From positions 399,451-463,450 of the forward strand of contig JAQUNI010000001.1 in the NCBI GenBank assembly GCA_028717685.1: a stretch of DNA of 64,000 nt. The letters are read 5' to 3'. Below the pieces are notes generated by a model. The model ran no database searches and was not told the DNA's origin. It saw only the letters and a program-made list of their open reading frames with translations. Positions 11,572 to 57,199 of this stretch are shown here, piece by piece. The first letter of the stretch is position 1. Each line of letters opens with the position of its first letter. This stretch comes from Patescibacteria group bacterium. Lineage in GTDB: Bacteria > Patescibacteriota > JAQUNI01. Position numbers and translations under genes: made by a program.

Positions 11572-11913
11572 ATGCCTAACAAGATAGGAAGGAAAAATTC
11601 CAGACCGAGGCATATGGAGGTATTAGAGATTCCGATTGATCCTAGAACTGGAAAAAAGGCGGATTGGGTGGGAATTAACCGAGGCAAACAGGTGATAGGA
11701 TTTTTTATTACTGTTGAACAAGAAAGCATAACGCCCGGGGCAAGAACCAACAGGGGCTGGAAATATTACCCTATCCCAGAGGAGGCATATTATGTTCTCT
11801 TTAATGTGACACCTGACGACCATCCAAAGATGAGAGACAATATAATCAAAATCGCGGAATTCCGCGATCAAAATAAGCAAAAGATGGAAACTTCTCGCGT
11901 GGAATCAAAATAA
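11572..11913 (+). CDS. hypothetical protein
   Basis: 113 aa with a strong SD (AAAGGAGGG) and a consensus promoter upstream. A terminator hairpin overlaps the stop. Confidence 0.6.
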   Translation: MPNKIGRKNSRPRHMEVLEIPIDPRTGKKADWVGINRGKQVIGFFITVEQESITPGARTNRGWKYYPIPEEAYYVLFNVTPDDHPKMRDNIIKIAEFRDQNKQKMETSRVESK

Positions 11914-13594: not shown

Positions 13595-13629
13595 ATATAT
13601 TAAAAAGCAGAGAAACAAGATTCTCTGCT
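13595..13629 (-). terminator. intrinsic terminator downstream of radical SAM gene (bidirectional)
   Basis: AGCAGAGAA-ACAAGA-TTCTCTGCT, with TTTTAATAT on the minus strand. Confidence 0.6.
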
Positions 13630-13641
13630 TGAAGTTTTGGA

Positions 13642-15195
13642 TTAAGTAAAGTGCTTCTGCACTCTGCTTAATACCTCTTGGTATAAACATTGCGGGATAG
13701 ACTTGCCATCCTTGGGCGGACAATGGCAGTTGAACATCCCGTGACGGGCATAATTTTCACTTCTGTGCCAGATATCCGCTAAAGATTCTTTGCGGACATC
13801 CTCACTGAATACAGTTACGTCATCGCCAGGGCAGCGCAGAACAATCCCACGCGAAGTGATATACATTCCGCAGGCAACCTGGTTGCAGGGGTGACCGCCA
13901 GCGTAAGCGGAAACCCCATTCTCTGAAAGTTCTTTAAGCGTATTTACACCCTTTTCAATATTATAAATATTGATCCGGGTATACAGTGCGATGAGCTCTT
14001 CTTCCCGCGGCGTAAGGTCTTTCCACGATTCCCGCGCTCTACCCGCGCACATAGAAACAGTAGTTACGGGGTAGATATTGCGCTCCCGAGCAAAGACATA
14101 AATGTCATAAATTTCGTGAATATTCTGCTTAGTGATTGGAACAATGGCAAGGCACAGCCTTGTTGGCTGACCCTGATTAAATCCGGCTTCTGCTAGAAGT
14201 TCTAGAGCGCGGTTGCGCTTTTCAGTATAACCTTGAACGCCGACCATTTCATCTTGCAAAGCTGGATCAAAGGAATTAAAGCCGACATTAAGACTCACAC
14301 CCAGATCCTTGATGACACTGACCAACTCCCGAGCAGAAAGATTGAAATATTTATTGGCTAGCGCGTCATCGCCTAAGACATGGGCTTTCGTAAAAATATT
14401 GACCTTAATGCCTAAACTTTTTAATTGTTCCAAAAAAATTAGAAAATACTTATCCTCAAAAGGCTCGCCGGCACCTAAAATCTTAATGCTTTCTAAACCA
14501 AGTTCTTGGGCCTGACTATTAATCAAATATAATATCTCTATAGGCAGTAAACAAGGATTTGAACTACGGTTTACAGCGCCATTGCGCCGGAAACAATGAG
14601 GACAATTTAAGGAACAATACTCGCCGAAATCAAGATCCAGAGTGAGTAATTTGCCGGTATTTTGCGCAAGATATTCTTTACTAAAACTCCAGCCATCCAC
14701 ATCATTAACAAAGTTATTTGGCACCTGCTCTTTGCCGGGGCAAATAGGATTGATTTGATGGGGAAAAATGGACCTGCGTTTAGAGAAATCATTTTGCGTA
14801 AGGGCTGAACTTATCGCAATAATTATTTGCTTGGTGTTATCCTTATTTTTGCGCGGAATATCGGGTAAATTAACGCCTTCTTGCTCACTCTCATAGCGAT
14901 CAGAAAGATTAGTAGCCCTGTTCCGATCAAGCCAAGTAAAACCGTCAGGAATCGCACCTTTGCAGGTCAAGATAAAATTCTTGTCATCCACTTTGGTCAG
15001 TTCAACTTCAATATTGGTTTCATAACCTTTTTCACTTAGGACGTGTAAAATCGTGGGTCCGGTTTGGAAACCATAACCATAAATCAAAAACTGAACAGCA
15101 GAAGTGTTATAGCCGGCAAAAAGCGGCATTACCAGATTGATTGTTAAACACACGATAGCCGCCAAAATAAACCAAAAATTTCTTTTCATTTTCAA
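13642..15195 (-). CDS. radical SAM protein with C-terminal Cys-rich (SPASM/twitch-like) region and N-terminal hydrophobic anchor; paralog 1
   Basis: CSLNCPHCF (CxxxCxxC) motif and G-rich SAM-binding GAGEPF. C-terminal region HPCNQVACG...CPG...CHC...C. The N-terminus MKMKRNFWFILAAIVCLTINLV looks like a signal anchor. SD AAGGAGGT. Confidence 0.85.
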   Translation of the reverse strand: MKMKRNFWFILAAIVCLTINLVMPLFAGYNTSAVQFLIYGYGFQTGPTILHVLSEKGYETNIEVELTKVDDKNFILTCKGAIPDGFTWLDRNRATNLSDRYESEQEGVNLPDIPRKNKDNTKQIIIAISSALTQNDFSKRRSIFPHQINPICPGKEQVPNNFVNDVDGWSFSKEYLAQNTGKLLTLDLDFGEYCSLNCPHCFRRNGAVNRSSNPCLLPIEILYLINSQAQELGLESIKILGAGEPFEDKYFLIFLEQLKSLGIKVNIFTKAHVLGDDALANKYFNLSARELVSVIKDLGVSLNVGFNSFDPALQDEMVGVQGYTEKRNRALELLAEAGFNQGQPTRLCLAIVPITKQNIHEIYDIYVFARERNIYPVTTVSMCAGRARESWKDLTPREEELIALYTRINIYNIEKGVNTLKELSENGVSAYAGGHPCNQVACGMYITSRGIVLRCPGDDVTVFSEDVRKESLADIWHRSENYARHGMFNCHCPPKDGKSIPQCLYQEVLSRVQKHFT

Positions 15196-15284
15196 TTACC
15201 TCCTTAAAAAACATGCAGAATTTCAACAAGAGAAGTTTTGAAGGGGAGAGGATAAAATGGCGGTCTTTTATCCTCTCCTTGAGA

Positions 15285-16853
15285 TTATGCTGTCTGTAGC
15301 ACCTTTGCCTCTATATTTTTATAGAAATTTTGAGGCAAAGAGAAACCATCACGGGCAACACAATGATAATTGTATCGCTTGCCGTACTTGGCTCGCTGAT
15401 AGTTGGAAGATTTCATCCAAACATCCCGTAAGGATGTTTCTTGACGAATATCACGAGTGAAGATAGTGCTCTGATCCACTCTACCGGGACAGAGATTGAC
15501 CTGTCCAGATAGATTCAGGAAGAATCCGGCGGCGGTTTGATTACAAACATGGCATCCAGGATATAAGGACACCCCATCTTCCACAAAAGTTTCCTTGGAG
15601 ATAAGATTTTTTTGGACTGCCCAGATGTAAATCTTGGCCCACAGATCTTCAAGTTCCGAAATATACTCTTTATGCTTTTTCTCGAGTTCCAACTCGTCTA
15701 GCCCTTTACCACTGATAGTTGTTGGACAGGTCAACATATAAATATTTCTCGGTCTTGCCCATGAATACAGATCGAAAATTTCATCTACATTCTCTGGTTT
15801 TACTGGCGCGGCGATCATCGCTAAACGAGTCGCTTCGCCTTCGTAGTATTCATTAAATCCAGCTTTAACTAGATTTAATAACGCCTGATCTCTAAAATCC
15901 ACATAATTTTTCAGCAATGCAGACGATTTATACTTATCTACACCTGTGAAACTTTCTTGCATCTCACGATTAAAAGAATTAAAGCCAAGTAAAATGCTAA
16001 CTTTCAATTCTTTAATTCGTTGCGTTAACTCCAATCCGGAATAAATTCCACGATGGCTATTATACTTTCTGGCTAACTCATCGCAACCTAATACATGTCC
16101 TTTGCTAAAAACTGCTACTCCAACATCTAATTTGGTCATTTCTTCCAGAAATTCAAGAAATCTTGAATTCTGGAATGGTTCGCCCCTGCCCAAGATCTTG
16201 ATTTGCTTTAAACCAAGCGTTTTCGCTTCTTGAACATAGCCCACTATTTCCTCGTGGGTGAGAGGGTTATTGGCGAGGTCAAAACGCTTGTCCCTGCGAA
16301 AACAATGCGGACAGGCAAGTCCGCAAGTATTGCCAATATCAAGGTCCATAGTTAATAATCGCGCTGTCCCGTCTGGAAGGGTAGAATGTAATTCCTCTTT
16401 ACTAATATTGCCCCACCATTTGACGTTATTCTTATAACCTTCAGGGAATTGGCCGGGGAACATTACAGGAATTTTGGCAGTGAGCAGATCCAAAGACGAA
16501 TCGCGTCTTTGAATTATGGCTAACACATAAAGCATTGTTGGCTCTGCCTTCATTGCTGCGACCTTTTTGACAGAGACCTGAACATGCGGCTTGGACTCAA
16601 CTGGGATTTCTAGCCAACCAGCGCCTTCGCCTTTAAACGAAAACTTGCCAGAATTCTTACCATCTATTGAAATAATTTCTCCGTAATTGACACTAACTTC
16701 ATTACTTGTTCCGTCCAGCGTTAAAAACGACAGACAACCCTCTCCGGTTGTATCAATGCCTTTTACTGCCAGCGAGTGGCTAATATCCAAAGACACATTC
16801 ATCGCCACGAGCATAACCGACACGAGAATAATTAATATTCTTTTCATTTTCAA
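15285..16853 (-). CDS. radical SAM protein, paralog 2 (same architecture as 13642-15195)
   Basis: CGLACPHCF motif, GRGEPF, C-terminal CHVCNQTAAG...CPG...HC, and the N-terminus MKMKRILIILVSVMLVAM. The SD context GGAGGTAATTGAAAATG is identical to that of paralog 1. Confidence 0.85.
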   Translation of the reverse strand: MKMKRILIILVSVMLVAMNVSLDISHSLAVKGIDTTGEGCLSFLTLDGTSNEVSVNYGEIISIDGKNSGKFSFKGEGAGWLEIPVESKPHVQVSVKKVAAMKAEPTMLYVLAIIQRRDSSLDLLTAKIPVMFPGQFPEGYKNNVKWWGNISKEELHSTLPDGTARLLTMDLDIGNTCGLACPHCFRRDKRFDLANNPLTHEEIVGYVQEAKTLGLKQIKILGRGEPFQNSRFLEFLEEMTKLDVGVAVFSKGHVLGCDELARKYNSHRGIYSGLELTQRIKELKVSILLGFNSFNREMQESFTGVDKYKSSALLKNYVDFRDQALLNLVKAGFNEYYEGEATRLAMIAAPVKPENVDEIFDLYSWARPRNIYMLTCPTTISGKGLDELELEKKHKEYISELEDLWAKIYIWAVQKNLISKETFVEDGVSLYPGCHVCNQTAAGFFLNLSGQVNLCPGRVDQSTIFTRDIRQETSLRDVWMKSSNYQRAKYGKRYNYHCVARDGFSLPQNFYKNIEAKVLQTA

Positions 16854-16861
16854 TTACCTCC

Positions 16862-17092
16862 TCATTTAAACTGGGTTACAACCTCATCTACATTGTCTTT
16901 GACTCGCTCGCAAATCTGCTTTTTGATTTCCGCAATGGTATCGGGATCCAAGCCCAGCTCTTTTGCTTTTTCCTTTAATTCATTAAGCAGGAAATATATT
17001 TCCATAAGGGCGTAGCCAAATCCCATGCTGTAATTATTCCGAGCCACGCCATCGCAGATAGTCTTCATATAATTTGGCACATTTTCTTCCAT
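16862..17092 (-). CDS. small helical protein (76 aa) immediately upstream of the radical SAM pair; candidate partner or precursor peptide
   Basis: AGGAGG SD 8 nt upstream. There is an 8-nt gap to the downstream radical SAM gene. Two Cys residues. Confidence 0.55.
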   Translation of the reverse strand: MEENVPNYMKTICDGVARNNYSMGFGYALMEIYFLLNELKEKAKELGLDPDTIAEIKKQICERVKDNVDEVVTQFK

Positions 17093-17281
17093 CCTTCTAT
17101 CCTCCTATTTCCTCTTTTAAGGGTGAGCGTTAAACATTTATTTGACAAAGTTCATTTTTTGTTTTGTTATGACATTATAGCATATCTAAATATAATTGTC
17201 AATAGTTTTGGTCAAATTGACTTAATTATTTGTCTTTAAAATGGAGATAAAAATGATAATTAAATATTTTGTTGAAAGGTC

Positions 17282-17310
17282 TTGACACAAAAATAGGGGG
17301 AGTATATAAT
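17282..17310 (+). promoter_or_regulatory. perfect-consensus sigma70 promoter TTGACA-17-TATAAT for the TrmB-family regulator
   Basis: TTGACA at 17282-17287 and TATAAT at 17305-17310. It is followed by a 120-nt leader containing two G/C hairpins (CCCCCTTATCAGGGGG; CCCTCCCTGATAATGGAGGG). Confidence 0.7.
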
Positions 17311-17432
17311 AAAAACAAGGGTAAACCCCCTTAATCCCCCTTATCAGGGGGAAAATTAATTTCCCTCCCTGATAATGGAGGGTTGGGTTAATTCTTCCCC
17401 AGAATAAAAAATACTCATAACAACAAACATCT

Positions 17433-18242
17433 ATGCCTAAAATTGACTCAAGTTTACAAGCCGCTCTATCTGACCTTGGTTTTAGCGACAAGGAAACCAA
17501 GGTGTATTTAGCTTTGCTTGAAATAGGAAGAGGAACCGTGAGCGCGATTGCCCGCACTGCGAGTATTAACCGCACCACGGGATATAATATCTTGGATGTT
17601 CTAGTGAGCAAGGGTTTAGCGCGCATTTCCGGCAAAGAGCCGAAAGAGGAATATGTGGCGGAAGCGCCGAATGTGATTACCAAACTTTTGAAAGAAAAAA
17701 TCGCCGCGTATGAAGCGCAACTAAAAAAAGCGGCAAAACTTGTGCCGCAACTAGCGACGATCCACAATATTGTTGACCGACCGAAGGTAAAATTTTATGA
17801 AGGGAAAGAAGGATTAATTGAAGTTTATGAAGATACTTTAACCTCCACCGAAGAAATCAGAGCTTATGCTACTTTGGATGATATGTATCAGGCCTTGCCT
17901 AATTATTTTCCCGACTATTTTAAGAGGCGAGCGAAAAAGAAGATTCCAATTAAAGCTATTATTCCTTTTACAAAAGTGGCTACCGAAAGAATGAAATACA
18001 ACAAAGAAGAGATGAGAACTGCAGCTTTAATTCCTGAGAGACAATTTCGCTTTTCACCCGAGATCAACATCTATGACAATAAAGTAATGATCGCCTCTTG
18101 GCGGGAAAAACTGGGGATTATTATTGAGAGCGCGGAAATAGCAGACGCGATGAAAAAAATTTATGAGCTGGCTTGGGCGGAAGCAAAAAGATTGGATCGG
18201 GAGACGCGAGAGTCTCCTCCCATTGGCTTGAGGAAGGATTAA
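17433..18242 (+). CDS. TrmB-family transcriptional regulator
   Basis: N-terminal winged HTH typical of TrmB (KVYLALLEIGRGTVSAIARTASINRTTGYNILDVLVSKGL) plus a C-terminal effector domain. Confidence 0.75.
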   Translation: MPKIDSSLQAALSDLGFSDKETKVYLALLEIGRGTVSAIARTASINRTTGYNILDVLVSKGLARISGKEPKEEYVAEAPNVITKLLKEKIAAYEAQLKKAAKLVPQLATIHNIVDRPKVKFYEGKEGLIEVYEDTLTSTEEIRAYATLDDMYQALPNYFPDYFKRRAKKKIPIKAIIPFTKVATERMKYNKEEMRTAALIPERQFRFSPEINIYDNKVMIASWREKLGIIIESAEIADAMKKIYELAWAEAKRLDRETRESPPIGLRKD

Positions 18243-18415: not shown

Positions 18416-18970
18416 ATGCTTCCATTCAAAAACCAAGAAAAAAAACTCGTCAAAAAAGCCCAAAGGGATCCTGAAGCCTTTGTGGAGCTTTATAATTTTT
18501 ATTTTCCCAAAATCTTCCGCTTTGCCGCTTACCGCGTGAGCAGCCTTGAGGATACGGAAGATGTGGTGGCGGATATTTTTGAAAAAGCTTTGAAATACCT
18601 CTCCCGTTTCCGCTGGAGGGAAAACGCTAACTTTGGCTCCTGGCTTTTCCAAATCGCCCGCAATACCATTATTGACTATTACAAAAAAAACTCTCGCGGG
18701 CGGTTGGTAAACCTTGCGGATTTGCCCGAAATCGCCTCCCACGAAATCCTACCTTCCGACGCGGTAAAGCGCAAAGAAGGCTTCCAAGAACTGCAAAAAT
18801 TAGTAAATACACTGCCCGCTCGGCAAGCCGAGATCGTCGCTTTGCGTTTTTTTGCTGAAAGGCGGAATAAAGAAATAGCCCAAATCCTCAAGATCTCGGA
18901 AAAAACCGTCGCCTCTAACCTCTGCCGCGCCCTGCGCACTCTCCACCGCCGTTACCAAAATTTGCAGTAA
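18416..18970 (+). CDS. ECF-type RNA polymerase sigma factor (sigma-70 regions 2 and 4)
   Basis: Region 2 (FPKIFRFAAYRV...DVVADIF) and a region 4 HTH (EIVALRFFAERRNKEIAQILKISEKTVASNL). Confidence 0.8.
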   Translation: MLPFKNQEKKLVKKAQRDPEAFVELYNFYFPKIFRFAAYRVSSLEDTEDVVADIFEKALKYLSRFRWRENANFGSWLFQIARNTIIDYYKKNSRGRLVNLADLPEIASHEILPSDAVKRKEGFQELQKLVNTLPARQAEIVALRFFAERRNKEIAQILKISEKTVASNLCRALRTLHRRYQNLQ

Positions 18971-19006
18971 TTAAACTAGCAACCTTGTTATAATATATAT
19001 AAACTT

Positions 19007-19621
19007 ATGTCTAAAAAAAATAATCCTGTGAACCCCGTTGGATGTTCACTATCTAACGGAGCCGACAGAGTCAACAATCAAAGCCTTTTAAATGAGATTG
19101 AGAAGATGCTCTCCGCGCCGCAAGGTCGGAATCACCTTAAGAATAATGCCTTGCTCGGTTTTTGCGCCCGACTTATTGCCACGCGACCTGAAGCGCGCGA
19201 TAACTACCGCCAATATCTCAAACAAAGGCTCTCTGCGCTATACCCTCGGAAACGGAAGATAGACTGGAAACAAAAAATAGCGGCTTTGCGCCTCCTCCCA
19301 TTGCGCCAGCTATTTACATTAAGGACAGCGTCTCTCTGCCTCTCCCTGATTTTACTTATTGTCCTCGGAGTGATAAATGGACAGAACCCCTTACTCCAAA
19401 AAACTTCCGAGGTTTCTTTAAGCCCAAGAACCATAGATAATGCCGCGCTCTCGGAAACAGACCGTATCACCCCCGTGAAAAAAACTTTGTTTTTAACCTC
19501 GGAAAAAATAAACTCCGAAAAAAATTACCGCGTCCTCAAAGAATATCAAGAATTTAAACTCATAGAATACACCCTTTTTGACGGCTCTAAAATTATTGCC
19601 GTAAAAAACATCTTGCTTTAA
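19007..19621 (+). CDS. putative anti-sigma factor / membrane protein downstream of ECF sigma
   Basis: Single TM helix (LCLSLILLIVLGVI). The call rests on position after the sigma gene. A TGTTATAAT extended -10 lies immediately upstream. Confidence 0.4.
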   Translation: MSKKNNPVNPVGCSLSNGADRVNNQSLLNEIEKMLSAPQGRNHLKNNALLGFCARLIATRPEARDNYRQYLKQRLSALYPRKRKIDWKQKIAALRLLPLRQLFTLRTASLCLSLILLIVLGVINGQNPLLQKTSEVSLSPRTIDNAALSETDRITPVKKTLFLTSEKINSEKNYRVLKEYQEFKLIEYTLFDGSKIIAVKNILL

Positions 19622-20126: not shown

Positions 20127-20777
20127 TCAATTAGAAATGTTAGTGGTATAGACTTCCGCTTCAACTGATGCCTGGATAAGGTCTGCCTGCGGCTCAATCT
20201 CGAGGGGGGGACTAGATGTCTTTGTTTCTTTATTTTTGAGAGTAAAACTCGCAAGGCGAGGATTGGTATAATAGTTTAGATTCTCTAGAGACTGTAAATA
20301 TTTCACAAAATTGGGAAAACTGCCTTCTAAATTCAACCTGTAAACCAAAGGCTCCACAGCGCGGCTTGGAGCAGTTTCTTTAGATTTTACCTTGCTATCT
20401 TCTCCTTCTTCTCCAGAAGGGGCGCTTTTCTTTGGCATTTCTTTCTTCTCCAGGTCAATTTTTTGCACCATACCCGTTTCTTGGGCAATCTTTTCCAACT
20501 TCTGGATGAAAACAATAAAGCTTGTCTGATCTAAAAATGTTTCATTGATTAAGAAAACGTCTGGTGCCACTTTCTCGTAATCCGCAGAGAATTTATCAAA
20601 ATTGCTCGCATTATAATCAAGCTCATTAAGCTCCTGCCTCTTTTCTACAATCTCGTTGCTTAAATTTTTAATATCTTGCACCACAAAATAATAGATTAAA
20701 AGACCGCCGCCCGCCCAAACGCACAAAGTAGCAAGAATGAAAATAATTAATTTCTTTTTTGGAAAAAAGGTAGACAT
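20127..20777 (-). CDS. type IV pilus assembly protein, PilO-like
   Basis: N-terminal TM plus coiled coil. Lies directly downstream of pilN in the pilMNO order. Confidence 0.55.
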   Translation of the reverse strand: MSTFFPKKKLIIFILATLCVWAGGGLLIYYFVVQDIKNLSNEIVEKRQELNELDYNASNFDKFSADYEKVAPDVFLINETFLDQTSFIVFIQKLEKIAQETGMVQKIDLEKKEMPKKSAPSGEEGEDSKVKSKETAPSRAVEPLVYRLNLEGSFPNFVKYLQSLENLNYYTNPRLASFTLKNKETKTSSPPLEIEPQADLIQASVEAEVYTTNISN

Positions 20778-20785
20778 ATAAAAAT

Positions 20786-21337
20786 TTACTTTAAATATTC
20801 TTCCTTAACTTTAAATTTTAACTGAAAATCCACATCCTCACGGCTTTCCAAATTAGAAAGGGGAGACTCAATGTCTTTAAAAAACGCGCTTTCGGCAAGA
20901 TTCTTTTGGAAACGCAATAAACTATCCCGCGTCTCCGCCACGCCCTGTATTTCCACGCCACCTCCATCCTTCTGAACCTGAAGACGGATTATTCTAACTT
21001 CGGGGGGCGTCAAACGGGTCAGCTCAACTAAAAAGGGACTAAAACGGATGTGTTGGAATTGAAGAGCCGCAATCTTTTCAAGGTTGTTGTTGAATTGGTT
21101 GATCTTATCCTCTAAAGCGGAAAATCCAGAGGCGGCAGAAGCGCTCTTTTTTTGCTCCAGATCTCCCTCTAAAATTTTTAAATTATGGCGCAACAAAAAG
21201 TCAGCGCCAAGGAGCAGGGCTAAAACCAAAATCCCAAAAATGGAAAGCACCAAGACTCTCCTGAAAAGAAATGAATGCAGTCTTGTTAATTTTAAGTCTT
21301 TAATATTTTGAGGAGGGAGAAGATTGATGGTAATCAT
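20786..21337 (-). CDS. pilN: type IV pilus assembly protein PilN
   Basis: Begins MITINLLPP (the INLLP signature of PilN), followed by a TM helix. Confidence 0.75.
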   Translation of the reverse strand: MITINLLPPQNIKDLKLTRLHSFLFRRVLVLSIFGILVLALLLGADFLLRHNLKILEGDLEQKKSASAASGFSALEDKINQFNNNLEKIAALQFQHIRFSPFLVELTRLTPPEVRIIRLQVQKDGGGVEIQGVAETRDSLLRFQKNLAESAFFKDIESPLSNLESREDVDFQLKFKVKEEYLK

Positions 21338-21339
21338 AA

Positions 21340-21458
21340 AACAAGTTCAAAATTCAAAGTTCCCGCCTGCCATCACCTGCTGGCGAAGCCAATGGCGGGC
21401 AGGCAAAATTCAAAGTTACAATTTCATTTACAATCAACTTTAAACTTTGCACTTTGAA
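21340..21458. repeat. AT-rich palindromic element, family E (word CAAAGTTCAAAGTGCAAAG) with GC-rich core GCCTGCCAT...ATGGCGGGCAGGC
   Basis: Related copies at 25812-25980 and 63178-63268. Confidence 0.7.
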
Positions 21459-21465
21459 CTCTTAA

Positions 21466-22530
21466 CTAAACCCCTTCCATCCCCCTTAAAGCTAAGCCTA
21501 TAGCCGTGGCATAGCCCAAAGAATCCTTACGGCTAACTTCCGGCAAATACTTGCTCTTGGGGGCTAAGATATTCACCCAAGGATCCCCTAAAACAACTTC
21601 CTTTTTTAAAATTATCTTGAGCTCTGGAACGAGGCCTTTCAATTTCGCGCCACCGCCGCAAAGAACCACCTTGCTTAAAATTTGCCCTTGGGGAAAATGA
21701 TCTTGGTAGAATCTCAATGCCGTTTCAATTTCTCGAGCTAAAGCCTCTAACCCCCCTTTTAAACTTTGATAAATCTTTGCCTCAATCCCGCTCTCTTTCG
21801 CGTTCAAACCATAAATTTTTTTCATCCCTTCGGCTTCGGTTATGCTGATTTTTAAATCCCGCATCAAGTTATTGGTAAAAGTTTCGCCCGCCGGCTCCAC
21901 GGAGGCTGTAAATTGGAGAGTCGCGCGGTCATAAATAATCAAACTGGTCCGGCTAATGCCAATATCCACAAGAAGATAACAAGCATTATCTCCTTCGCGA
22001 ACGAGACTGCGCGCGGTAGCCGCTGATTCCACCTCGCAAGCAATAGGAATGAGATCTGCTCTCCGTAAAACATTGATATAGCTGTCCACCAGTTTCTTGG
22101 GCGAAGCGGCGACTAAGACCTCTAAATGATCAGGGGATTCGCCCACTTTCTGCCAATCTAAATAAACCTCGCTGCCGGAAAGCGGAATGTGCTGTTCTGA
22201 TTCCCATTTGACCGCCTCCGCCAATTCCTCTTCGGGCAAACGAGGTAATTTAATAATCCGCACAAAAGATTCATATTCTGGCACACAAGCAACCACAAAC
22301 CGAGTTTTTATCCTGCCTTTACGCGCCTTTACCCTGCTCTCATTTATTGCCGCAACCAAAAGATCTTCCTTCACCACCCTGCCCTTAATAACCGTCCCTT
22401 CCTGCAAAAGGAATTCACAAAAATTAGAAAGTTCAATATTTTTTCCTTCTCTTTTTAGTTCAATCAATTTTAAACTTTGATCCGAGAGATCTAAACCAAA
22501 AGCATGCATTGAATAAATCTTAAATCTCAA
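21466..22530 (-). CDS. pilM: type IV pilus assembly ATPase-like protein PilM
   Basis: Actin-like ATPase fold, with blocks FGLDLS...LKLIEL and GGG...KGL typical of PilM. Confidence 0.85.
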   Translation of the reverse strand: MRFKIYSMHAFGLDLSDQSLKLIELKREGKNIELSNFCEFLLQEGTVIKGRVVKEDLLVAAINESRVKARKGRIKTRFVVACVPEYESFVRIIKLPRLPEEELAEAVKWESEQHIPLSGSEVYLDWQKVGESPDHLEVLVAASPKKLVDSYINVLRRADLIPIACEVESAATARSLVREGDNACYLLVDIGISRTSLIIYDRATLQFTASVEPAGETFTNNLMRDLKISITEAEGMKKIYGLNAKESGIEAKIYQSLKGGLEALAREIETALRFYQDHFPQGQILSKVVLCGGGAKLKGLVPELKIILKKEVVLGDPWVNILAPKSKYLPEVSRKDSLGYATAIGLALRGMEGV

Positions 22531-22619
22531 AAGTCAAAAGGCAAAAGTATAGTAGAAATAGAAGACTTTTAACTTTTACCTTGCAGATTTACCTTTTGAG
22601 ATTTAACTTTTAACTTTTT
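22531..22619. repeat. AT-rich palindromic element, family F (word AAAAGTCAAAGG / CCTTTTGACTTT)
   Basis: A second copy lies at 29088-29174. Confidence 0.65.
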
Positions 22620-23879
22620 TCAATATTCTTCCTCCCAATGTTCAATCGTGACCACGGGGGAATCGGTAGGCGGACCGAAAAGGCTTTTATTCAGAATCTC
22701 ATCATTATAAGTAATATTCATATCGCTCCAAAAGTTTAAAAAGTCAACCTCCCGACCAATAATTGAACCCGTAATATTCACCTCGCCCGTAAAGCTTAAA
22801 TTTTGGATGCGCACCCCATCCATAGCGTAAAGCACGCCTTCAATATTGACATCCCCGCTGAAAGGACGACCCAGAATTTCCACAGAACCCTTAGCGATAA
22901 ATCCCGAACCTTTGCCTGGAGTATTATTCACTTCCAAATGAATGGGTTCAGAACGAGCCCCTCCTGTGTCGCCGTAAATAATATTGCCATCCGCCACTAG
23001 AATACCATTCAACACCAAGGAATCGCCCCGCTTCAAACGCACATCACCCTCTACATAATTCACATCGCTATTTAAAACCAATGGATTATTATTGTCTAAA
23101 AGCGTGCGGAATTCATCTTCGGTATAAACCGCGCCCGCGCGGCTTTTGTAAGAATTGGGGTCGTCCGAGTCAAAATCAAGCATTGGCATTGCCACATGGT
23201 CGGGCGGCGCGGCACATGGAGAACACCCAACCACAGGACAATTCACCGCGCCACAGCCTTCCGTGGCATTAAGATTTGACCAGGAGTAAAGATGAATCTC
23301 ATCGGCAGTTAAAGCCTGTCCATCAATATTAGCCCCACTCCAAGCGAATAAATCTAAATCATCATTTGCAAACATATCCCCGCCCGTGATATTCACCACG
23401 CTCATATTAATATTGGTGTCCACATCGCTATAGGTTGCCATTCCCGCCAGAGGGCTCGGATTTACAGCCCGCACGACCTTTGTTTTGACAATTCTTTGTG
23501 CGGTAGCGCCGGTTAAAGTTAATTTTCCTATAGAGATAATATCCGCCCTTCCCGGATCTGTAGCCTCAATTTGCACCTCGTAGGCACCTCCGCTCGCTAA
23601 CCCGCTGTCGCGCGTCAAAGTGCGGCTGATATTTCCATCTTCAAATTCCTGCCGCCAATCAGAATCATTGCGCAGTTTATAGACCGCCTCATTAATACCG
23701 GCTTCGGCTAAATAATAGGTTTCAAAAGCCGAACCCTGGCTTAAAGAAATCCTTCTCTCCAAGGTAACAAGCGTAAAAAAGGTTGCGCCAACCAATAAAA
23801 GGACGCCTAAAATTAAAATAATCGTAATCAAAGCAAAGCCTGATCTGTATTGATTTTTTCTATAAAATCCTATTTCCAT
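22620..23879 (-). CDS. large minor pilin-like protein (PilX N-terminal-like domain)
   Basis: N-terminal TM helix followed by ...LVTLERRISLSQGSAFETYYLAEAGINEAVYKL, as in PilX-family minor pilins. The C-terminus is beta-rich. Confidence 0.55.
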   Translation of the reverse strand: MEIGFYRKNQYRSGFALITIILILGVLLLVGATFFTLVTLERRISLSQGSAFETYYLAEAGINEAVYKLRNDSDWRQEFEDGNISRTLTRDSGLASGGAYEVQIEATDPGRADIISIGKLTLTGATAQRIVKTKVVRAVNPSPLAGMATYSDVDTNINMSVVNITGGDMFANDDLDLFAWSGANIDGQALTADEIHLYSWSNLNATEGCGAVNCPVVGCSPCAAPPDHVAMPMLDFDSDDPNSYKSRAGAVYTEDEFRTLLDNNNPLVLNSDVNYVEGDVRLKRGDSLVLNGILVADGNIIYGDTGGARSEPIHLEVNNTPGKGSGFIAKGSVEILGRPFSGDVNIEGVLYAMDGVRIQNLSFTGEVNITGSIIGREVDFLNFWSDMNITYNDEILNKSLFGPPTDSPVVTIEHWEEEY

Positions 23880-23913
23880 TATACAATTTTAAAACTTAAA
23901 TAAAAAGATATCT

Positions 23914-24507
23914 TCATCTTAAATTGCGTCCGCAAACACCCGTTAAAAAATCCACCTTCTCTTCCAAAGAGAGAGCGGTAAGCATAATATGCACCAGCCT
24001 GTCTTCCCCCCAAAATATTAAATGATCAATGTATTCCGCTATAACCTCATCGGCATCTACCGCTTTTTCCGCGCTATGGCCAAATTCATCTACCGCGCTC
24101 CAGACCACCCACGAGTCCGGGTCAGCGGAAAAATAATAATGACTGCGCTCACGATGCAAACTGCCGTCCAGCACATAGTAACGAATATATTGTATAGGCT
24201 CCAGGGTATGACCGTCTTGGAACATAATCTCCGCCGGCGGGGGACTATCCGGGTCATCGGAAACAGGAGGCAGATCGGTCACCAATTCTTGAGATTGCCG
24301 CAAATCACGGGTGATGCGATCCAGGGCGACGCGACCGTTTTGGGCTAATTCCACCTTTTTGTTTTCTTTCTCCGTAAAGCGCAAAGCTAAATCATAAGAA
24401 GCATAGGCAAGTAAAACAACAACTAAACCTACACTGATAGCCACTAAGATTTCGGCTAGCGTAAAACCTTTTTGGGAATTTAAATTAACCATTTTACGAA
24501 TTTTCAA
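23914..24507 (-). CDS. type IV pilin-like protein (prepilin N-terminal methylation motif)
   Basis: ...NSQKG|FTLAEILVAISVGLVVV, a class III signal with G-1/F+1/E+5. Confidence 0.7.
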   Translation of the reverse strand: MKIRKMVNLNSQKGFTLAEILVAISVGLVVVLLAYASYDLALRFTEKENKKVELAQNGRVALDRITRDLRQSQELVTDLPPVSDDPDSPPPAEIMFQDGHTLEPIQYIRYYVLDGSLHRERSHYYFSADPDSWVVWSAVDEFGHSAEKAVDADEVIAEYIDHLIFWGEDRLVHIMLTALSLEEKVDFLTGVCGRNLR

Positions 24508-24636
24508 TTTCTAATTTTCAATTTTTATTAAATTTCTAATGATTTAATTTTTAAACTTCCTTATTAAGAAATGAGTGTTTGAAAATTGATTCATTGAAAA
24601 TTTAATAGAAATTAGACATTGAAAATTAAAAATTAA
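24498..24636. repeat. AT-rich palindromic intergenic element, family A copy
   Basis: AATTTTCAATTTCTAATTTTCAATTTTTATTAAATTT ... AAATTTAATAGAAATTAGACATTGAAAATT. Confidence 0.8.
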
Positions 24637-24642
24637 TACCTG

Positions 24643-25047
24643 CTAATATCTACTAACCAAAGTTACCCAACTTTTTTGTTTATCCTGGATTCCTTCCCGC
24701 CAATAAACCGTTACTTCTATTTTTTTCATCCCCTCATCTTCGGAGACCTCGTTTAAATCTCCGTCCACATGATGAATTTCGGTTTGGATTTCAAAATAAT
24801 GAAGCTGGCTTGTGGTATCTTCAACAGCCGAAGCGCGGGCCTCCACAACACCGGTTTCAAGCGCATTGTAAGGTTTGGCTATGTATTCCTCCATTTTCCC
24901 CTGGGCGAGGAAGGCGACCTGCGTGTCGTGGCGCGCGATTGTTGCTAACTTGGAACCCAGAGGTAAAAATTGCAAAACCGCTAAAAAAGCAATCAAAAAA
25001 ATAGCGAGAGCAACCACGGCTTCAATTAAGGTAAAGCCCTGTGCCAT
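24643..25047 (-). CDS. type IV pilin (prepilin-type N-terminus MAQG|FTLIE)
   Basis: GFTLIEAVVALAIFLIAFLAV. The long ORF extends to 25110, but MAQG is the typical short leader. Confidence 0.65.
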   Translation of the reverse strand: MAQGFTLIEAVVALAIFLIAFLAVLQFLPLGSKLATIARHDTQVAFLAQGKMEEYIAKPYNALETGVVEARASAVEDTTSQLHYFEIQTEIHHVDGDLNEVSEDEGMKKIEVTVYWREGIQDKQKSWVTLVSRY

Positions 25048-25126
25048 TATGGATTTACATCCGTGGCGTTCCAACGCGGGGGTAAAGGCGTAATTATGTT
25101 TATTGGACATAAATTATGCTAATTGT

Positions 25127-25251
25127 TCTAATTGACCTAATTGTTCTAAATAATGACCAAACCCCAATGTCTAATGTCTAAAATTTTGGTCATTTCACCA
25201 TTGGTCATTGGGATTTAGTTAGAAATTAGAAATTAGAACAATTAGAATAAT
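25127..25251. repeat. AT-rich palindromic intergenic element, family B (word AATTGTTCTAATTGACCTAAT / ATTAGAACAATTAGAATAATT)
   Basis: Copies at 40733-40890 and 43470-43621 share the arms and a central CCCAATG...CATTGGG core. Confidence 0.8.
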
Positions 25252-25318
25252 TTTAATGGAATCTTGCCGCGCCCGCTCTGGAAGCTTCGCTTCAAGCGAG
25301 GCGGGTTGGCACTTTGGA

Positions 25319-25834
25319 TTAATAGTTGATAAAGCCCGCGGGACGCACATCAATGGTCTTCACTTCATCATAACGATTAGCAAGGTCAATCTGACCCGCG
25401 TCCACCACTCCGCCCGCCGTGGTGAACTGAATCTCTGGATTGCTTAAATCGCGCAATTCCCGAATCTCAATATCGGAATCCAGGGTTTCGGTTTGGATCG
25501 TCTCCGGCAAATAACCGCCAGGATTTTCAGGATCTGGATTTAAACGGATAATCTCATAATTCCTCTTGCCTACTAAATCAAACCACACTAAATAGGTTAT
25601 CTGCTCCGTAACTGTTTTCTGCTGCGCCAATCTTAAATTCTGGACAACTTTCTCGGTCTCGCGAGAGAGTTTGTAGGTCGGCGCGAATCTCCGAAAACTA
25701 AAAAGCGTAATCGCGGCTAGGATAGAAAAGATAGACAATACGATTAATAATTCTATTAAGGTAAATGCCTTATGGTTATAGTGACTGTAATATCTACCCA
25801 TTTTGAAATAAAGAGTTAAAAGTTCAAAGTGCAA
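25319..25834 (-). CDS. type IV pilin/pseudopilin (prepilin-type N-terminus ...HKA|FTLIELLIVL)
   Basis: Class III signal motif. The true start is probably the internal MGRYY. Confidence 0.65.
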   Translation of the reverse strand: MHFELLTLYFKMGRYYSHYNHKAFTLIELLIVLSIFSILAAITLFSFRRFAPTYKLSRETEKVVQNLRLAQQKTVTEQITYLVWFDLVGKRNYEIIRLNPDPENPGGYLPETIQTETLDSDIEIRELRDLSNPEIQFTTAGGVVDAGQIDLANRYDEVKTIDVRPAGFINY

Positions 25835-25980
25835 AGTGAAAAGTTGAATTCAAAGTTTAAAGTTTCTTTTGCAAAGCGATTGCTTCGCAATAATTTTGCA
25901 CTTTGAACCGCCCACCCGCAACGCTTTGCTTGCATGGCGGGCGCGGCAACTTTGAATTTTGAACCTTGAATTTTGCACTA
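25812..25980. repeat. AT-rich palindromic element, family E copy with GC core (CGCCCACCCGCAACGC...GCATGGCGGGCGCGG)
   Basis: Arms AAAGTTCAAAGTGCAAAGTG ... CACTTTGAACC / CAACTTTGAATTTTGAACC. Confidence 0.7.
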
Positions 25981-25981
25981 A

Positions 25982-27202
25982 TTATAAGACGCTCGTTAAC
26001 GAATAGATCGGCAAAATCACCGCTATAGCCATCGCGCCTACTGCCGCGCCTATAACAAGCATCAAAACCGGCTCAACAATCGTGGAAATATTCTTCATTG
26101 TTTGATCCACGTCTTCTTCATAAAACTCGGCTAATTTGACTAAAATTTCATCCAAGGCGCCCGTCTCCTCTCCCACTTCAATCACCTGGGTCACGATAGG
26201 CGGGAAGAGAAGCTTATTATGAGATAGAGCCTTGCTTAAAGCAGTCCCTTTCTGGACCTCCACAATGGAGGCCTTCACTGCTTTTTGATAATACACATTG
26301 CCTAGCGCATCTGACACTACATTTAAAGCCTCTAAAATCGGCAGCCCGGAAGCGAGCAGTGAAGCGAGGTTGCGAATAAAACGGGCAAGGTTAATCTTTT
26401 TAACGACTTTGCCGATAACCGGCAGAAAAAGATAAATTCGGTGAAAAATCAAACGCCCTGTACGGCTGCGTATCGCCTTGAAGGCGAGGAAGCCAAATAA
26501 TACAATGCCCCCTAAAATCCACCAGACATACGCGCCCATAAATTTGCTGGTCGCGATCAAGATCCGCGTCGGCAGGGGAAGACGGGCGTCAAATTCTTCA
26601 AAAATGGTAACTAATTTCGGTAAAACAAAGGTCATCATCAAAAAACCAATACCGCCCATCGCCACTAAGACTACGGCTGGATAAGTCATTGCGCCCGTTA
26701 CTTTCTTAACTAAATCACGATCTTTTTTTAGTTGCACGGCAAGCTGATTTAAAGCTTGGGTTAATGTGCCGGAAACCTCCCCGGTTTTAACCACATTCAC
26801 GTATAAATCAGGAAAAACCTTCGGATGCCTGGCGAGAGCATCACAAAAAGTTACGCCTGTTTCCACGCTTCTGTATAAATCTTGAATTACTCTTTTGAAC
26901 TTACGGTTGGCTGTCTGGCTCACTAAAATATGGAGCGCCTTGACAAGCGACAGTCCGGCTTTCAGCATCACTTCCAGATACTGCGTGAATAATACCTTAT
27001 CCATTAGGGAAATAAAACCGATTTGAGTTAAAATTTTCTGCAAAAAAAGAACTTTCCCTTTTTTTCCCTTCTCGTCAAAGTGGGTTAGCAAAAAACCTTG
27101 ACTATAAAGCCACTCCGCAAGTTTAGCTTCAGAATCCAAATCAATTTCGCCCTTTTTGACATTGCCCTCTTTATCGCGAGCCGAATAAATGTATAAAGGC
27201 AT
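25982..27202 (-). CDS. pilC: type IV pilus platform protein PilC (GspF family)
   Basis: 406 aa with two GspF repeats and three TM segments. Confidence 0.9.
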   Translation of the reverse strand: MPLYIYSARDKEGNVKKGEIDLDSEAKLAEWLYSQGFLLTHFDEKGKKGKVLFLQKILTQIGFISLMDKVLFTQYLEVMLKAGLSLVKALHILVSQTANRKFKRVIQDLYRSVETGVTFCDALARHPKVFPDLYVNVVKTGEVSGTLTQALNQLAVQLKKDRDLVKKVTGAMTYPAVVLVAMGGIGFLMMTFVLPKLVTIFEEFDARLPLPTRILIATSKFMGAYVWWILGGIVLFGFLAFKAIRSRTGRLIFHRIYLFLPVIGKVVKKINLARFIRNLASLLASGLPILEALNVVSDALGNVYYQKAVKASIVEVQKGTALSKALSHNKLLFPPIVTQVIEVGEETGALDEILVKLAEFYEEDVDQTMKNISTIVEPVLMLVIGAAVGAMAIAVILPIYSLTSVL

Positions 27203-27206
27203 AATG

Positions 27207-27347
27207 GAGAATTTTCAATTTCTAATTTTTAATTTTTATTAAATTTATAATTAACTAATTTTTAAACTTGTGTCAATCAGGAGGTAAGGGTTTGAAAATT
27301 AACTCATTAAAAATTTAATAGAAATTAGAAATTGAAAATTAGAAATT
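27207..27347. repeat. AT-rich palindromic intergenic element, family A copy
   Basis: Same arms as 10907-11044. Sits between pilB and pilC. Confidence 0.8.
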
Positions 27348-52750: not shown

Positions 52751-52991
52751 TCTAATGACATCCGGAAGATCATTTAATGCTAAATGAGCACAGAGCAGTT
52801 TAGGAAAAAAAAGTTTTTCCTACTCTGCTCTATTTTTTTATTCAAAAACTTGACGTAATTTATTGTATGTGCTAATATTTCAGGTCCTATATCAGGTTAG
52901 AACTTTGACAATTAGCTACAGAATTAGAAAACGCAAGGGGAAAATTGTATCGTATTGTACTAAATTCTAGGGAGAAGGGAGGTTTTGAAAA

Positions 52992-53867: not shown

Positions 53868-53879
53868 GGAGGTGGAATA

Positions 53880-55235: not shown

Positions 55236-55254
55236 AACCAAGGAGATGGGTAAG

Positions 55255-57126: not shown

Positions 57127-57199
57127 TAAAAGAGGCGGAAGGGAGACTCTAAAAAAATTCTTTTCGCCTCATCTAAATAAAAGAAAGGATGGAAAGAAA

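What the first reader, a model, noticed from the sequence alone, without database searches (positions are those of the whole stretch)
13642..18242. Tandem paralogous membrane-anchored radical SAM/Cys-rich-C-terminus enzymes with an upstream 76-aa ORF and a divergent TrmB regulator
Seen in sequence:
- Two adjacent minus-strand genes (517 and 522 aa) share the same architecture. Each has an MKMKR start followed by a roughly 20-residue hydrophobic anchor, an N-terminal domain of about 170 aa, a CxxxCPHCF radical-SAM cluster motif with GxGEPF, and a C-terminal Cys cluster (C..C-N-Q...CPG...HC..C) resembling SPASM/twitch auxiliary cluster domains.
- Both genes have an identical SD context (GGAGGTAATTGAAAATG). 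A 13-bp hairpin separates them.
- A 76-aa SD-led ORF ends 8 nt before the first radical SAM gene.
- A TrmB-family regulator is transcribed divergently from a perfect TTGACA-17-TATAAT promoter, and an ECF sigma/anti-sigma pair follows.

Established knowledge: radical SAM plus SPASM enzymes located next to small ORFs are the usual layout of peptide (RiPP) maturation loci, and these enzymes are normally soluble and cytoplasmic.

Inference: an N-terminal signal anchor on a radical SAM enzyme, duplicated in tandem, is atypical. This could be a membrane-associated peptide or protein modification system with its own regulator.
Basis: partly seen in the sequence, partly recalled or inferred. Interest (0 to 1): 0.8.

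Follow-up and report, generated by a model that had tools for sequence, protein, structure and literature searches.

The report
Signal-anchored radical SAM enzyme pair
A candidate-phyla-radiation bacterium carries a regulated operon with two radical SAM enzymes from a large uncharacterised family of ultra-small bacteria and archaea; unusually, both begin with a secretion-signal-like segment, and the locus does not look like a typical peptide-antibiotic (RiPP) cluster.

Summary
On the minus strand, 17092 to 13642, lie a 76-aa ORF and two paralogous radical SAM genes. The likely ATG starts give 520 and 515 aa. A TrmB-type regulator is divergent, and both directions have a perfect sigma-70 promoter.

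The distinctive feature is the N-terminal module: a positive n-region, a 12-22 aa hydrophobic segment and a roughly 100-aa domain. It occurs in only a minority of relatives and is under purifying selection. Two unrelated domain types exist, and the rSAM-2 type is also fused to B12-dependent radical SAM enzymes.

A divergent regulator is a family-wide trait (TrmB in bacteria, double AsnC/Lrp in archaea). Non-CPR relatives sit inside Liv-type ABC importer operons.

The 76-aa gene is real (dN/dS about 0.1). It exists only in four close relatives, and in the nearest genome only a remnant is left while rSAM-1 stays intact.

Verdict: a new variant of a known enzyme kind. The substrate is unknown and the RiPP reading is weakly supported.

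The parts
17433..18242 (+). TrmB-family wHTH regulator (269 aa), divergent from the operon
   Evidence: Pfam TrmB 53 bits against a 25.6 cutoff, covering residues 12-76 only. By eye it aligns along its length with the TrmB-like protein next to a short-form family member in L031. Similar regulators sit next to family members in about 14 bacterial loci and in L008, L074 and L077.
17282..17310 (+). Perfect TTGACA-17-TATAAT promoter for the TrmB gene
   Evidence: 12 of 12 matches. The block is conserved in L010 and L008.
17174..17202 (-). Perfect TTGACA-17-TATAAT promoter (with TG extension) for the 76-aa/rSAM operon
   Evidence: It is identical in L010 and nearly identical in L008, although synonymous sites between these genomes are saturated.
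17140..17221 (.). Conserved non-coding block with candidate operator motifs: GTCAATTTGAC at 17211-17221 and CTTTGTCAAAT at about 17140-17152
   Evidence: Invariant columns in the three-genome alignment lie outside the -35 and -10 hexamers. The operator role is an inference.
16862..17092 (-). 76-aa non-hydrophobic protein of unknown function with its own SD, ending 14 nt before the rSAM-2 ATG
   Evidence: Four homologues only, 74-87% identical. Each is immediately upstream of a long-form rSAM. dN/dS is 0.07-0.14. No family hit passes a cutoff.
15285..16847 (-). rSAM-2 (520 aa from the ATG): signal-like N-terminus, type-B beta-sandwich domain, radical SAM core, 4-Cys C-terminal domain
   Evidence: AF2 of residues 1-165 gives helix 2-16 and seven strands at 18-93 with pLDDT 81-88.
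16473..16847 (-). N-terminal module of rSAM-2 (about residues 1-125)
   Evidence: It is found only on radical SAM proteins, including B12-binding ones. dN/dS against L008 is 0.15.
15245..15278 (-). 13-bp stem / 8-nt loop hairpin between the two rSAM genes
   Evidence: No T-run follows, so it is not a canonical terminator. A role in attenuation or mRNA processing is an inference.
13642..15189 (-). rSAM-1 (515 aa from the ATG): hydrophobic N-terminus, type-A N-domain, radical SAM core, 5-Cys C-terminal domain
13605..13630 (-). Terminator-like hairpin with a T-run, at the end of the operon
   Evidence: 10-bp stem followed by TTTTAATATAT.
18416..19621 (+). ECF sigma factor (18416-18970) and a 204-aa putative anti-sigma (19007-19621). 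These are neighbouring context and membership of the system is not shown.
   Evidence: Sigma70_r2 and r4_2, TIGR02937 at 108 bits. ORFs of similar length (184 and 215 aa) occupy the matching position in L010. The 204-aa protein has no family hit.

Best explanation
This is a transcriptionally regulated operon from a Doudnabacteria-like CPR bacterium.

Enzymes. It encodes two paralogous radical SAM enzymes, one from each of two sister subfamilies that are widespread in CPR bacteria and DPANN archaea and have no assigned function. Each enzyme has the CX3CX2C [4Fe-4S]/SAM site, which makes a 5'-deoxyadenosyl radical. Each also has a twitch-like C-terminal domain whose 4-5 conserved Cys most simply bind one auxiliary [4Fe-4S] cluster.

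N-terminal module. Unlike most relatives, both enzymes have acquired an N-terminal module: a positively charged n-region, a 12-22 aa hydrophobic segment, a roughly 100-aa domain (a beta-sandwich in rSAM-2) and a short hydrophobic stretch followed by basic residues. I infer that this module tethers the enzymes to the cytoplasmic membrane with the catalytic domains on the cytoplasmic side, where SAM, reductant and Fe-S assembly are available. There they would act, probably with B12-radical SAM partners in other lineages, on a membrane-proximal or imported substrate.

Regulation. Expression runs from a consensus promoter back-to-back with the promoter of a TrmB-like regulator, which I infer controls the operon through conserved sites in the shared promoter block.

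Small protein. The 76-aa protein is a lineage-specific, dispensable partner. It is more likely an accessory or chaperone-like factor, or an optional substrate, than the defining RiPP precursor.

Shown: the gene models, enzyme class, family distribution, module distribution, purifying selection and the regulator association.
Inferred: membrane topology, number of clusters, the regulatory logic and everything about the substrate.
For: Enzyme class.
- Pfam Radical_SAM is above cutoff for both proteins.
- The AF2 core is mostly above pLDDT 90.

Family.
- Hundreds of clusters at 51-56% identity occur in Patescibacteria, Pacearchaeota, Nanoarchaeota, Diapherotrites and others.
- No NCBIfam model comes near its cutoff.
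- There is no PDB sequence relative.

Cysteines. Only C435, C453 and C490 are invariant, and C440 and C488 are at least 90% conserved. rSAM-2 has four C-terminal Cys.

N-terminal module.
- All 20 long forms show the n-region plus hydrophobic-core pattern (net-positive n-region in 19 of 20), and none has a twin-arginine.
- dN/dS of the N-terminal module is 0.09-0.18, as low as the core.
- The type-B module is fused to three radical SAM families, including B12-binding ones.
- Types A and B show no detectable homology. This points to selection for localisation rather than for one particular domain.
- The long form occupies the same S1 / Lactamase_B / ~200-aa ORF / GyrA neighbourhood as the short form in L005.

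Regulation.
- Two perfect promoters.
- The promoter block is conserved across three genomes whose synonymous sites are saturated.
- A divergent TrmB-like regulator occurs in about 14 bacterial loci, and a divergent double AsnC/Lrp regulator in about 14 archaeal loci.

Small ORF. dN/dS is about 0.1. It is present in only four relatives. In L010 only a remnant is left, while rSAM-1 stays intact at dN/dS 0.09.
Against: Classical sequence rules predict the opposite topology from the one I favour. A positive n-region, a short h-region in type B and no basic cluster after it all fit a Sec signal or an N-in/C-out anchor.

I could not run a dedicated topology predictor (DeepTMHMM, SignalP).

The closest structural relatives are mostly peptide- or protein-modifying enzymes, which keeps a protein substrate plausible.

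The N-domain models have only moderate (type B) or low (type A) confidence.

A single auxiliary cluster is inferred from Cys conservation alone.

No binding site for the TrmB-like protein has been shown.
Confidence: 0.5

Rival explanations
1. RiPP-like or protein maturation system. The 76-aa protein is the substrate. One or both radical SAM enzymes cross-link, epimerise or otherwise modify it at the membrane before export or assembly.
For: - The small ORF is immediately upstream of a long-form rSAM, separated from it by only a few nucleotides, in four genomes, even though its position within the operon changes.
- It is under strong purifying selection.
- The nearest folds are SkfB, anSME, ChlB, SuiB and CteB, all peptide or protein modifiers.
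- Tandem rSAMs, and B12-rSAM partners elsewhere, resemble multi-enzyme RiPP clusters.
Against: - The small ORF is absent from more than 60 other loci of the family and from 5.8 billion proteins apart from four relatives.
- In L010 it is degraded while rSAM-1 is conserved.
- It is conserved evenly along its length, with no visible split into leader and core regions.
- No PqqD/RRE match was found in either enzyme. No peptidase or exporter turned up among the neighbouring genes I scanned.
- Core identity of 51-56% between bacteria and archaea is unusual for maturases that co-evolve with their precursors.
- Small proteins upstream of SPASM enzymes have also been read as accessory factors (PMC8939145).
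Confidence: 0.2
2. The enzymes are truly exported. The N-terminus is a Sec signal peptide or an N-in/C-out anchor, so the beta-sandwich and the radical SAM domain sit on the cell surface. Alternatively they are delivered as apo-proteins to a host cell of this episymbiont.
For: - The n/h/c organisation is canonical in 20 of 20 long forms. The type-B hydrophobic core is only 12-14 aa, and no basic residues follow it.
- The N-domain is an Ig/FN3-like beta-sandwich whose weak structural matches are mostly extracellular domains.
- Neighbours are envelope-related: ECF sigma and an SLT transglycosylase in the window, and PspC and LiaI/LiaF-like proteins in L077.
Against: - SAM, low-potential reductant and Fe-S assembly are cytoplasmic (established knowledge).
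- Sec exports unfolded chains, and there is no twin-arginine motif for Tat.
- The same module on B12-dependent radical SAM enzymes would also require cobalamin outside the cell.
- Short-form relatives have no signal, and one (L005) sits in the same gene neighbourhood.
- The adjacent 76-aa protein has no hydrophobic segment.
Confidence: 0.12
3. The family acts on a soluble small molecule, such as an imported amino-acid-like compound or a sugar/nucleotide derivative. The N-terminal module merely docks the enzymes next to an uptake system, and the small ORF is unrelated to catalysis.
For: - In eight non-CPR loci the gene lies within or directly beside Liv/HAAT-type ABC importer genes. In L054 it overlaps the substrate-binding-protein gene by 17 nt.
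- A PLP-dependent enzyme follows it in four CPR/DPANN loci.
- The partner regulators belong to families that usually sense sugars (TrmB) or amino acids (Lrp/AsnC).
Against: - No transporter or PLP enzyme is present in the window operon.
- Structural ranking slightly favours peptide maturases.
- The C-terminal ligand domain of the TrmB-like protein matches no known sugar-binding model.
- This overlaps with the best explanation rather than excluding it.
Confidence: 0.3

Closest known systems
SkfB (sporulation killing factor maturase, PDB 6efn), a twitch-domain radical SAM RiPP maturase
   Different: - No sequence-level match was found.
- SkfB is soluble and works in a cluster that also encodes its SkfA precursor and export functions (from my own knowledge).
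- Here there is a signal-like N-terminus and no conserved precursor across the family.
SPASM-domain maturases (anSME, PqqE, SuiB, CteB, MftC)
   Different: - The seven-Cys SPASM motif with CX2CX5CX3C is absent.
- The SPASM score is below the gathering cutoff for rSAM-1, and rSAM-2 gives no hit.
- All equivalog scores are 10-50 bits against cutoffs of 265-650.
MoaA, BlsE and viperin (small-molecule radical SAM enzymes with a reduced C-terminal cluster domain or none)
   Different: The hits cover only about 90 residues around the CX3CX2C motif and lie far below cutoffs. The family shows no Moco or nucleotide-pathway genes among its recurrent neighbours.
Eukaryotic viperin's N-terminal amphipathic helix
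   Same: It is a precedent (from my own knowledge) for a radical SAM enzyme held on the cytosolic face of a membrane by an N-terminal helix.
   Different: That helix is amphipathic, not a signal-like n/h segment, and no beta-sandwich follows it. This is an analogy only, not homology.
TrmB-family regulators
   Same: The N-terminal winged-helix domain matches above cutoff, and the regulator is divergently transcribed from its target.
   Different: The C-terminal ~190 aa match no sugar-binding TrmB model (NCBIfam scores 19-28 bits against cutoffs of 500-650). The ligand is unknown.

Membership tests
Radical SAM superfamily (PF04055) | CX3CX2C motif for the SAM-binding [4Fe-4S] cluster | tested here: met
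   C192/C196/C199 in rSAM-1 and C175/C179/C182 in rSAM-2. These are invariant across 62 homologues.
Radical SAM superfamily (PF04055) | Profile score above the curated cutoff and a partial TIM-barrel fold | tested here: met
Radical SAM superfamily (PF04055) | SAM-dependent radical catalysis (5'-deoxyadenosine formation) | not testable with these tools
   Needs an anaerobic enzyme assay.
SPASM domain (PF13186 / TIGR04085) | Seven-Cys motif including CX2CX5CX3C, ligating two auxiliary [4Fe-4S] clusters | tested here: not met
   Only 4-5 conserved C-terminal Cys and no CX2CX5CX3C. SPASM scores 20.1 bits, below the 21.5 cutoff, for rSAM-1 and gives no hit for rSAM-2.
Twitch-type auxiliary domain | Shortened SPASM-like domain binding one auxiliary cluster | tested here: inconclusive
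   The Cys count and the SkfB top hit fit. Cluster stoichiometry needs Fe/S analysis and EPR or Mossbauer spectroscopy.
RiPP biosynthetic locus with a radical SAM maturase | Precursor peptide gene conserved next to the maturase across the family | tested here: not met
   The small ORF is present in four close relatives only, absent from more than 60 other loci, and reduced to a remnant in L010.
RiPP biosynthetic locus with a radical SAM maturase | RiPP recognition element (PqqD-like) in the enzyme or as a partner | tested here: not met
   No PqqD or RRE hit in Pfam or NCBIfam for either enzyme or for the 76-aa protein. The rSAM-2 N-domain is predicted as a beta-sandwich, not a winged helix.
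RiPP biosynthetic locus with a radical SAM maturase | Leader peptidase and/or dedicated exporter in the cluster | tested here: not met
   The genes scanned on either side are the SLT/DUF5715 protein, the TrmB regulator, the ECF sigma factor and a 204-aa protein with no hit. A 113-aa ORF further along also has no hit. None is a peptidase or exporter.
RiPP biosynthetic locus with a radical SAM maturase | Enzyme modifies the adjacent peptide | not testable with these tools
   Needs co-expression and mass spectrometry.
Sec-type signal peptide / N-terminal signal anchor | Positive n-region, hydrophobic h-region, polar c-region | tested here: met
   The pattern holds in 20 of 20 long forms (n-region net +1 to +3 in 19), the best 12-residue hydrophobic window averages KD 2.4-3.6, and there is no RR. 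These are rule-based checks only; no dedicated predictor was run.
Sec-type signal peptide / N-terminal signal anchor | Actual export, cleavage or membrane insertion | not testable with these tools
   Needs reporter fusions or proteomics.
TrmB family regulator (PF01978) | N-terminal TrmB-type winged helix | tested here: met
   53 bits against 25.6.
TrmB family regulator (PF01978) | C-terminal sugar-binding effector domain | tested here: not met
   No match beyond the N-terminal domain or near cutoff. NCBIfam TrmB/TrmBL1 scores are 19-28 bits against 500-650.
Prokaryotic viperin (pVip) defence | Full-length profile match to pVip models | tested here: not met
   Only 18-21 bits over about 90 residues around the cluster motif.

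The most novel reading that the evidence does not exclude
The signal-like N-terminus really does export these proteins. Radical SAM enzymes, including B12-dependent ones carrying the same module, would then operate on the cell surface of an episymbiotic CPR bacterium, or be delivered to its host cell as effectors that acquire clusters and SAM there. That would be an unprecedented location for radical SAM chemistry.
Probability: 0.1. Interest if true: 0.9.

Novelty: new variant of a known kind. Interest (0 to 1): 0.55.

Why it matters
CPR bacteria and DPANN archaea have tiny genomes. Even so, many keep one or more copies of this radical SAM family, often paired with a dedicated regulator, and no function has been assigned to it in the databases and literature I searched.

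The window shows a derived form. The enzymes carry a portable signal/anchor module that is shared with B12-radical SAM enzymes. This suggests a multi-enzyme radical pathway organised at the membrane.

Identifying the substrate would fill a gap in the metabolism of ultra-small symbionts. Candidates include an imported amino-acid-like compound, an envelope component or a protein.

If the enzymes prove to be extracytoplasmic, that would overturn the assumption that radical SAM chemistry is confined to the cytoplasm.

The locus is compact: a regulator, two consensus promoters and three genes. That makes it well suited to heterologous testing.

Tried and rejected
- PDB sequence search with rSAM-1 found nothing.
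- NCBIfam scans of both enzymes, short-form relatives and neighbouring rSAMs gave only sub-cutoff generic hits.
- PADLOC and PHROGs gave only weak pVip or generic radical SAM hits on the cluster-binding segment, so I rejected a known defence system.
- Rfam found only four tRNAs in the window and no riboswitch ahead of the operon.
- A profile of the 76-aa protein, searched against six-frame translations of all fetched loci, found no distant homologues next to other family members.
- Profile-profile comparison of the two N-domain types showed no homology.
- A weak hit of the N-domain to repeats in a 2579-aa TPS-domain protein (E = 2.7e-4) looked compositional, and I did not pursue it.
- I considered a two-pass topology: N-in, beta-sandwich outside, then re-entry through the short hydrophobic stretch followed by RR/RK. 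That stretch is only 9-11 residues and scores at or below KD 1.3 over 19 residues in the SPASM-type long forms, so I did not adopt this model.
- Four literature searches found no paper on this family or on signal-bearing radical SAM enzymes.

Full report
WHAT IS THERE

The minus strand carries a compact operon:
- a 76-aa ORF at 16862-17092;
- a first radical SAM gene, here rSAM-2, at 15285-16853;
- a second radical SAM gene, rSAM-1, at 13642-15195.

The listed TTG starts lie 3 nt after GGAGG. The ATG two codons downstream has a 9-nt spacer, and it is the start used on an identical public contig (520 and 515 aa). The proteins therefore most likely begin MKR rather than MKMKR.

About 25 nt around the SD and start codon are identical for the two genes. 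A 13-bp hairpin lies between them at 15245-15278. The 101-nt intergenic stretch folds at -30.1 kcal/mol, z = -4.4, and no T-run follows the hairpin. A terminator-like hairpin with a T-run closes the operon at 13605-13630.

There are two perfect TTGACA-17-TATAAT promoters, back to back:
- 17202-17174 (-) drives the operon;
- 17282-17310 (+) drives the divergent TrmB-type regulator at 17433-18242.

An ECF sigma factor follows. The next 204-aa ORF has no family hit.

The window is typical CPR genome content: gyrA, ftsH, tilS, clpP and a type IV pilus cluster. The closest genome in GTDB is a Candidatus Doudnabacteria MAG, with rSAM-1 92% identical.

THE ENZYMES

Both proteins pass the Pfam Radical_SAM cutoff and have CX3CX2C and GxGEPF motifs. 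SPASM is just below cutoff for rSAM-1 and absent for rSAM-2. No NCBIfam model comes near its cutoff, and there is no sequence relative in the PDB.

Across 62 homologues only C435, C453 and C490 are invariant in the C-terminal domain, and C440 and C488 are at least 90% conserved. rSAM-2 has four C-terminal Cys. There is no CX2CX5CX3C motif. The most economical reading is a twitch-like domain with one auxiliary cluster. This is an inference from Cys conservation.

THE FAMILY

The two genes are 36% identical over the core and represent two sister subfamilies.
- The rSAM-1 type is usually about 376-380 aa with no N-terminal extension. It is found at 51-56% identity in many Patescibacteria and in Pacearchaeota, Nanoarchaeota, Diapherotrites and relatives.
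- The rSAM-2 type is usually about 400-425 aa with a similar distribution.

A scan of one genome per species returned 64 loci. These also include sporadic members labelled Bacteroidetes, Ignavibacteriae, TM6, Sedimentisphaerales, Chloroflexi, Gammaproteobacteria and Methanosarcinales.

COMPARATIVE CONTEXT

I called ORFs in these loci and clustered the neighbours.
- The commonest neighbour is a divergently transcribed HTH regulator. It is a TrmB-like protein in about 14 bacterial loci and a double AsnC/Lrp-type protein in about 14 archaeal loci. By eye, the L031 TrmB-like protein aligns with the window's along its length. Two unrelated regulator families in the same position argue that regulated expression is a family trait.
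- In eight non-CPR loci the gene sits within or directly beside a Liv/HAAT-type ABC importer gene cluster. In L054 it overlaps the substrate-binding-protein gene by 17 nt.
- In four loci a PLP-dependent enzyme follows.
- In four loci a B12-binding radical SAM gene lies nearby, and in three of them a further radical SAM paralogue as well.
- No conserved small ORF, peptidase or exporter appeared among the recurrent neighbour clusters.

THE N-TERMINAL MODULE

Only a minority of relatives carry it. In every one of 20 long forms the start has the same pattern:
- a positively charged n-region (net positive in 19 of 20);
- a hydrophobic core of 12-14 aa in the rSAM-2 type and about 22 aa in rSAM-1;
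- no twin-arginine;
- no basic cluster after the hydrophobic segment.

One public protein that seemed to lack the segment had simply been called from an internal ATG.

In the SPASM-type long forms, and by eye in the two B12-type proteins, a 9-11 aa hydrophobic stretch followed by RR/RK-type residues precedes the core.

The modules are under purifying selection as strong as the cores (dN/dS 0.09-0.18).

An exhaustive search with the rSAM-2 module found it essentially only on radical SAM proteins. These include two B12-binding radical SAM enzymes. One of them again follows a divergent TrmB gene and a small ORF.

The window's long forms lie in the same S1 / Lactamase_B / ~200-aa ORF / GyrA neighbourhood as a short form in another CPR genome. 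The long form therefore looks like the short enzyme plus an added module.

THE 76-aa ORF

It is a real gene. Its four homologues are 74-87% identical with dN/dS of 0.07-0.14. Each lies directly upstream of a long-form enzyme, although the gene order differs:
- small / rSAM-2 / rSAM-1 in the window;
- rSAM-2 / small / rSAM-1 / a third rSAM in L008;
- small / rSAM-1 in L009.

It is not hydrophobic and matches no family. It is absent from all other loci.

In the Doudnabacteria MAG the same promoter is followed by a 3' remnant of the small ORF fused to the SD of rSAM-1, and rSAM-2 is missing. rSAM-1 there is intact, with dN/dS 0.09. The small protein and rSAM-2 are therefore dispensable for whatever keeps rSAM-1 under selection.

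A published analysis of other SPASM loci also reads small proteins directly upstream of the enzyme as possible PqqD-like accessory factors rather than precursors (PMC8939145).

INTERPRETATION

So is the link between the regulator and the enzymes.

The RiPP reading is weakened by three things: the narrow distribution and loss of the small ORF, the missing RiPP accessories, and the family's conservation and context. It is kept alive by the structural neighbours and by the small ORF's consistent position directly upstream of a long-form enzyme.

The topology is a real puzzle. Sequence rules predict export, while the cofactor biology of radical SAM enzymes, and especially of B12-radical SAM enzymes, argues for a cytoplasmic catalytic domain.

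I favour a membrane tether with cytoplasmic catalysis, acting on a membrane-proximal or imported substrate, at about 0.5. I give about 0.2 to a peptide or protein substrate and about 0.1 to true export.

Nearby envelope-related genes are suggestive only: an ECF sigma factor and an SLT-domain protein in the window, and PspC and LiaF-like proteins in L077.

NOVELTY

The enzyme class is known. This family is not modelled in NCBIfam, and four full-text literature searches found nothing on it. A portable signal-like module shared by three radical SAM families also turned up no precedent in those searches. I rate it a new variant of a known kind, with moderate interest.

Noticed in passing
L010:5700-5835 (Candidatus Doudnabacteria MAG JBAZQX010000007.1) compared with window 16840-17210: The sister genome keeps the identical operon promoter. 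It has lost most of the 76-aa ORF and all of rSAM-2, leaving a 3' remnant (..GAGGTTGTAACCC..AGTTT..) fused to the rSAM-1 start. The 25-nt repeat shared by the two rSAM gene starts in the window is a plausible recombination site for this deletion.
   Followed up: partly
L004:5021-9641 (Pacearchaeota contig): A short-form family member sits among Memo, two other radical SAM genes and an AMMECR1 gene. This resembles the 'AmmeMemoRadiSam' gene set. I did not assess whether the family is functionally tied to that set.
   Followed up: no
L030:8148-12380, with large proteins of similar size in L039, L047 and L069: In Bacteroidetes/TM6-type loci the radical SAM gene is followed by a 1286-1469 aa protein. 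The L030 copy has no Pfam or PADLOC match. In L030 and L039 a ~285-aa ORF precedes the radical SAM gene, and the L030 copy also has no hit. Both are of unknown function.
   Followed up: partly
window 44682-48449 (+): A 1255-aa ORF with a Lys/Glu-rich N-terminus has no Pfam match. It lies in the stretch with the strongest AT skew (0.34-0.37) and highest GC (0.48) of the window.
   Followed up: partly
window 52034-58228 (+): A run of five ORFs with signal-like hydrophobic N-termini has almost no family matches. One (55228-57126) has a sub-threshold GspD/secretin N0-domain hit (25.8 bits against 27). This would be notable in a CPR bacterium, which is presumed to have a single membrane.
   Followed up: partly
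window 20127-29100 (-): A run of ORFs that by eye looks like a type IV pilus cluster: PilM/N/O-like ORFs, several prepilin-like ORFs with FTLIE-type N-termini, one with a sub-threshold PilX_N hit, and PilC- and PilB-like ORFs. It starts about 2 kb beyond the TrmB / ECF sigma genes.
   Followed up: no
window 17316-17403 and L010:5425-5560: The variable part of the TrmB/operon intergenic region carries G/C-rich inverted repeats (CCCTTATCAGGG / CCCTGATAATGG in the window). A different palindromic insert occupies this part in the sister genome. These may be small mobile repeat elements.
   Followed up: no
window 11572-11913 (+): A 113-aa ORF with no family match lies beside the radical SAM block in the window, L007, L008 and L010. 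L007 and L008 are 74% and 46% identical to the window copy; in L010 an ORF of the same length sits in the same place.
   Followed up: partly
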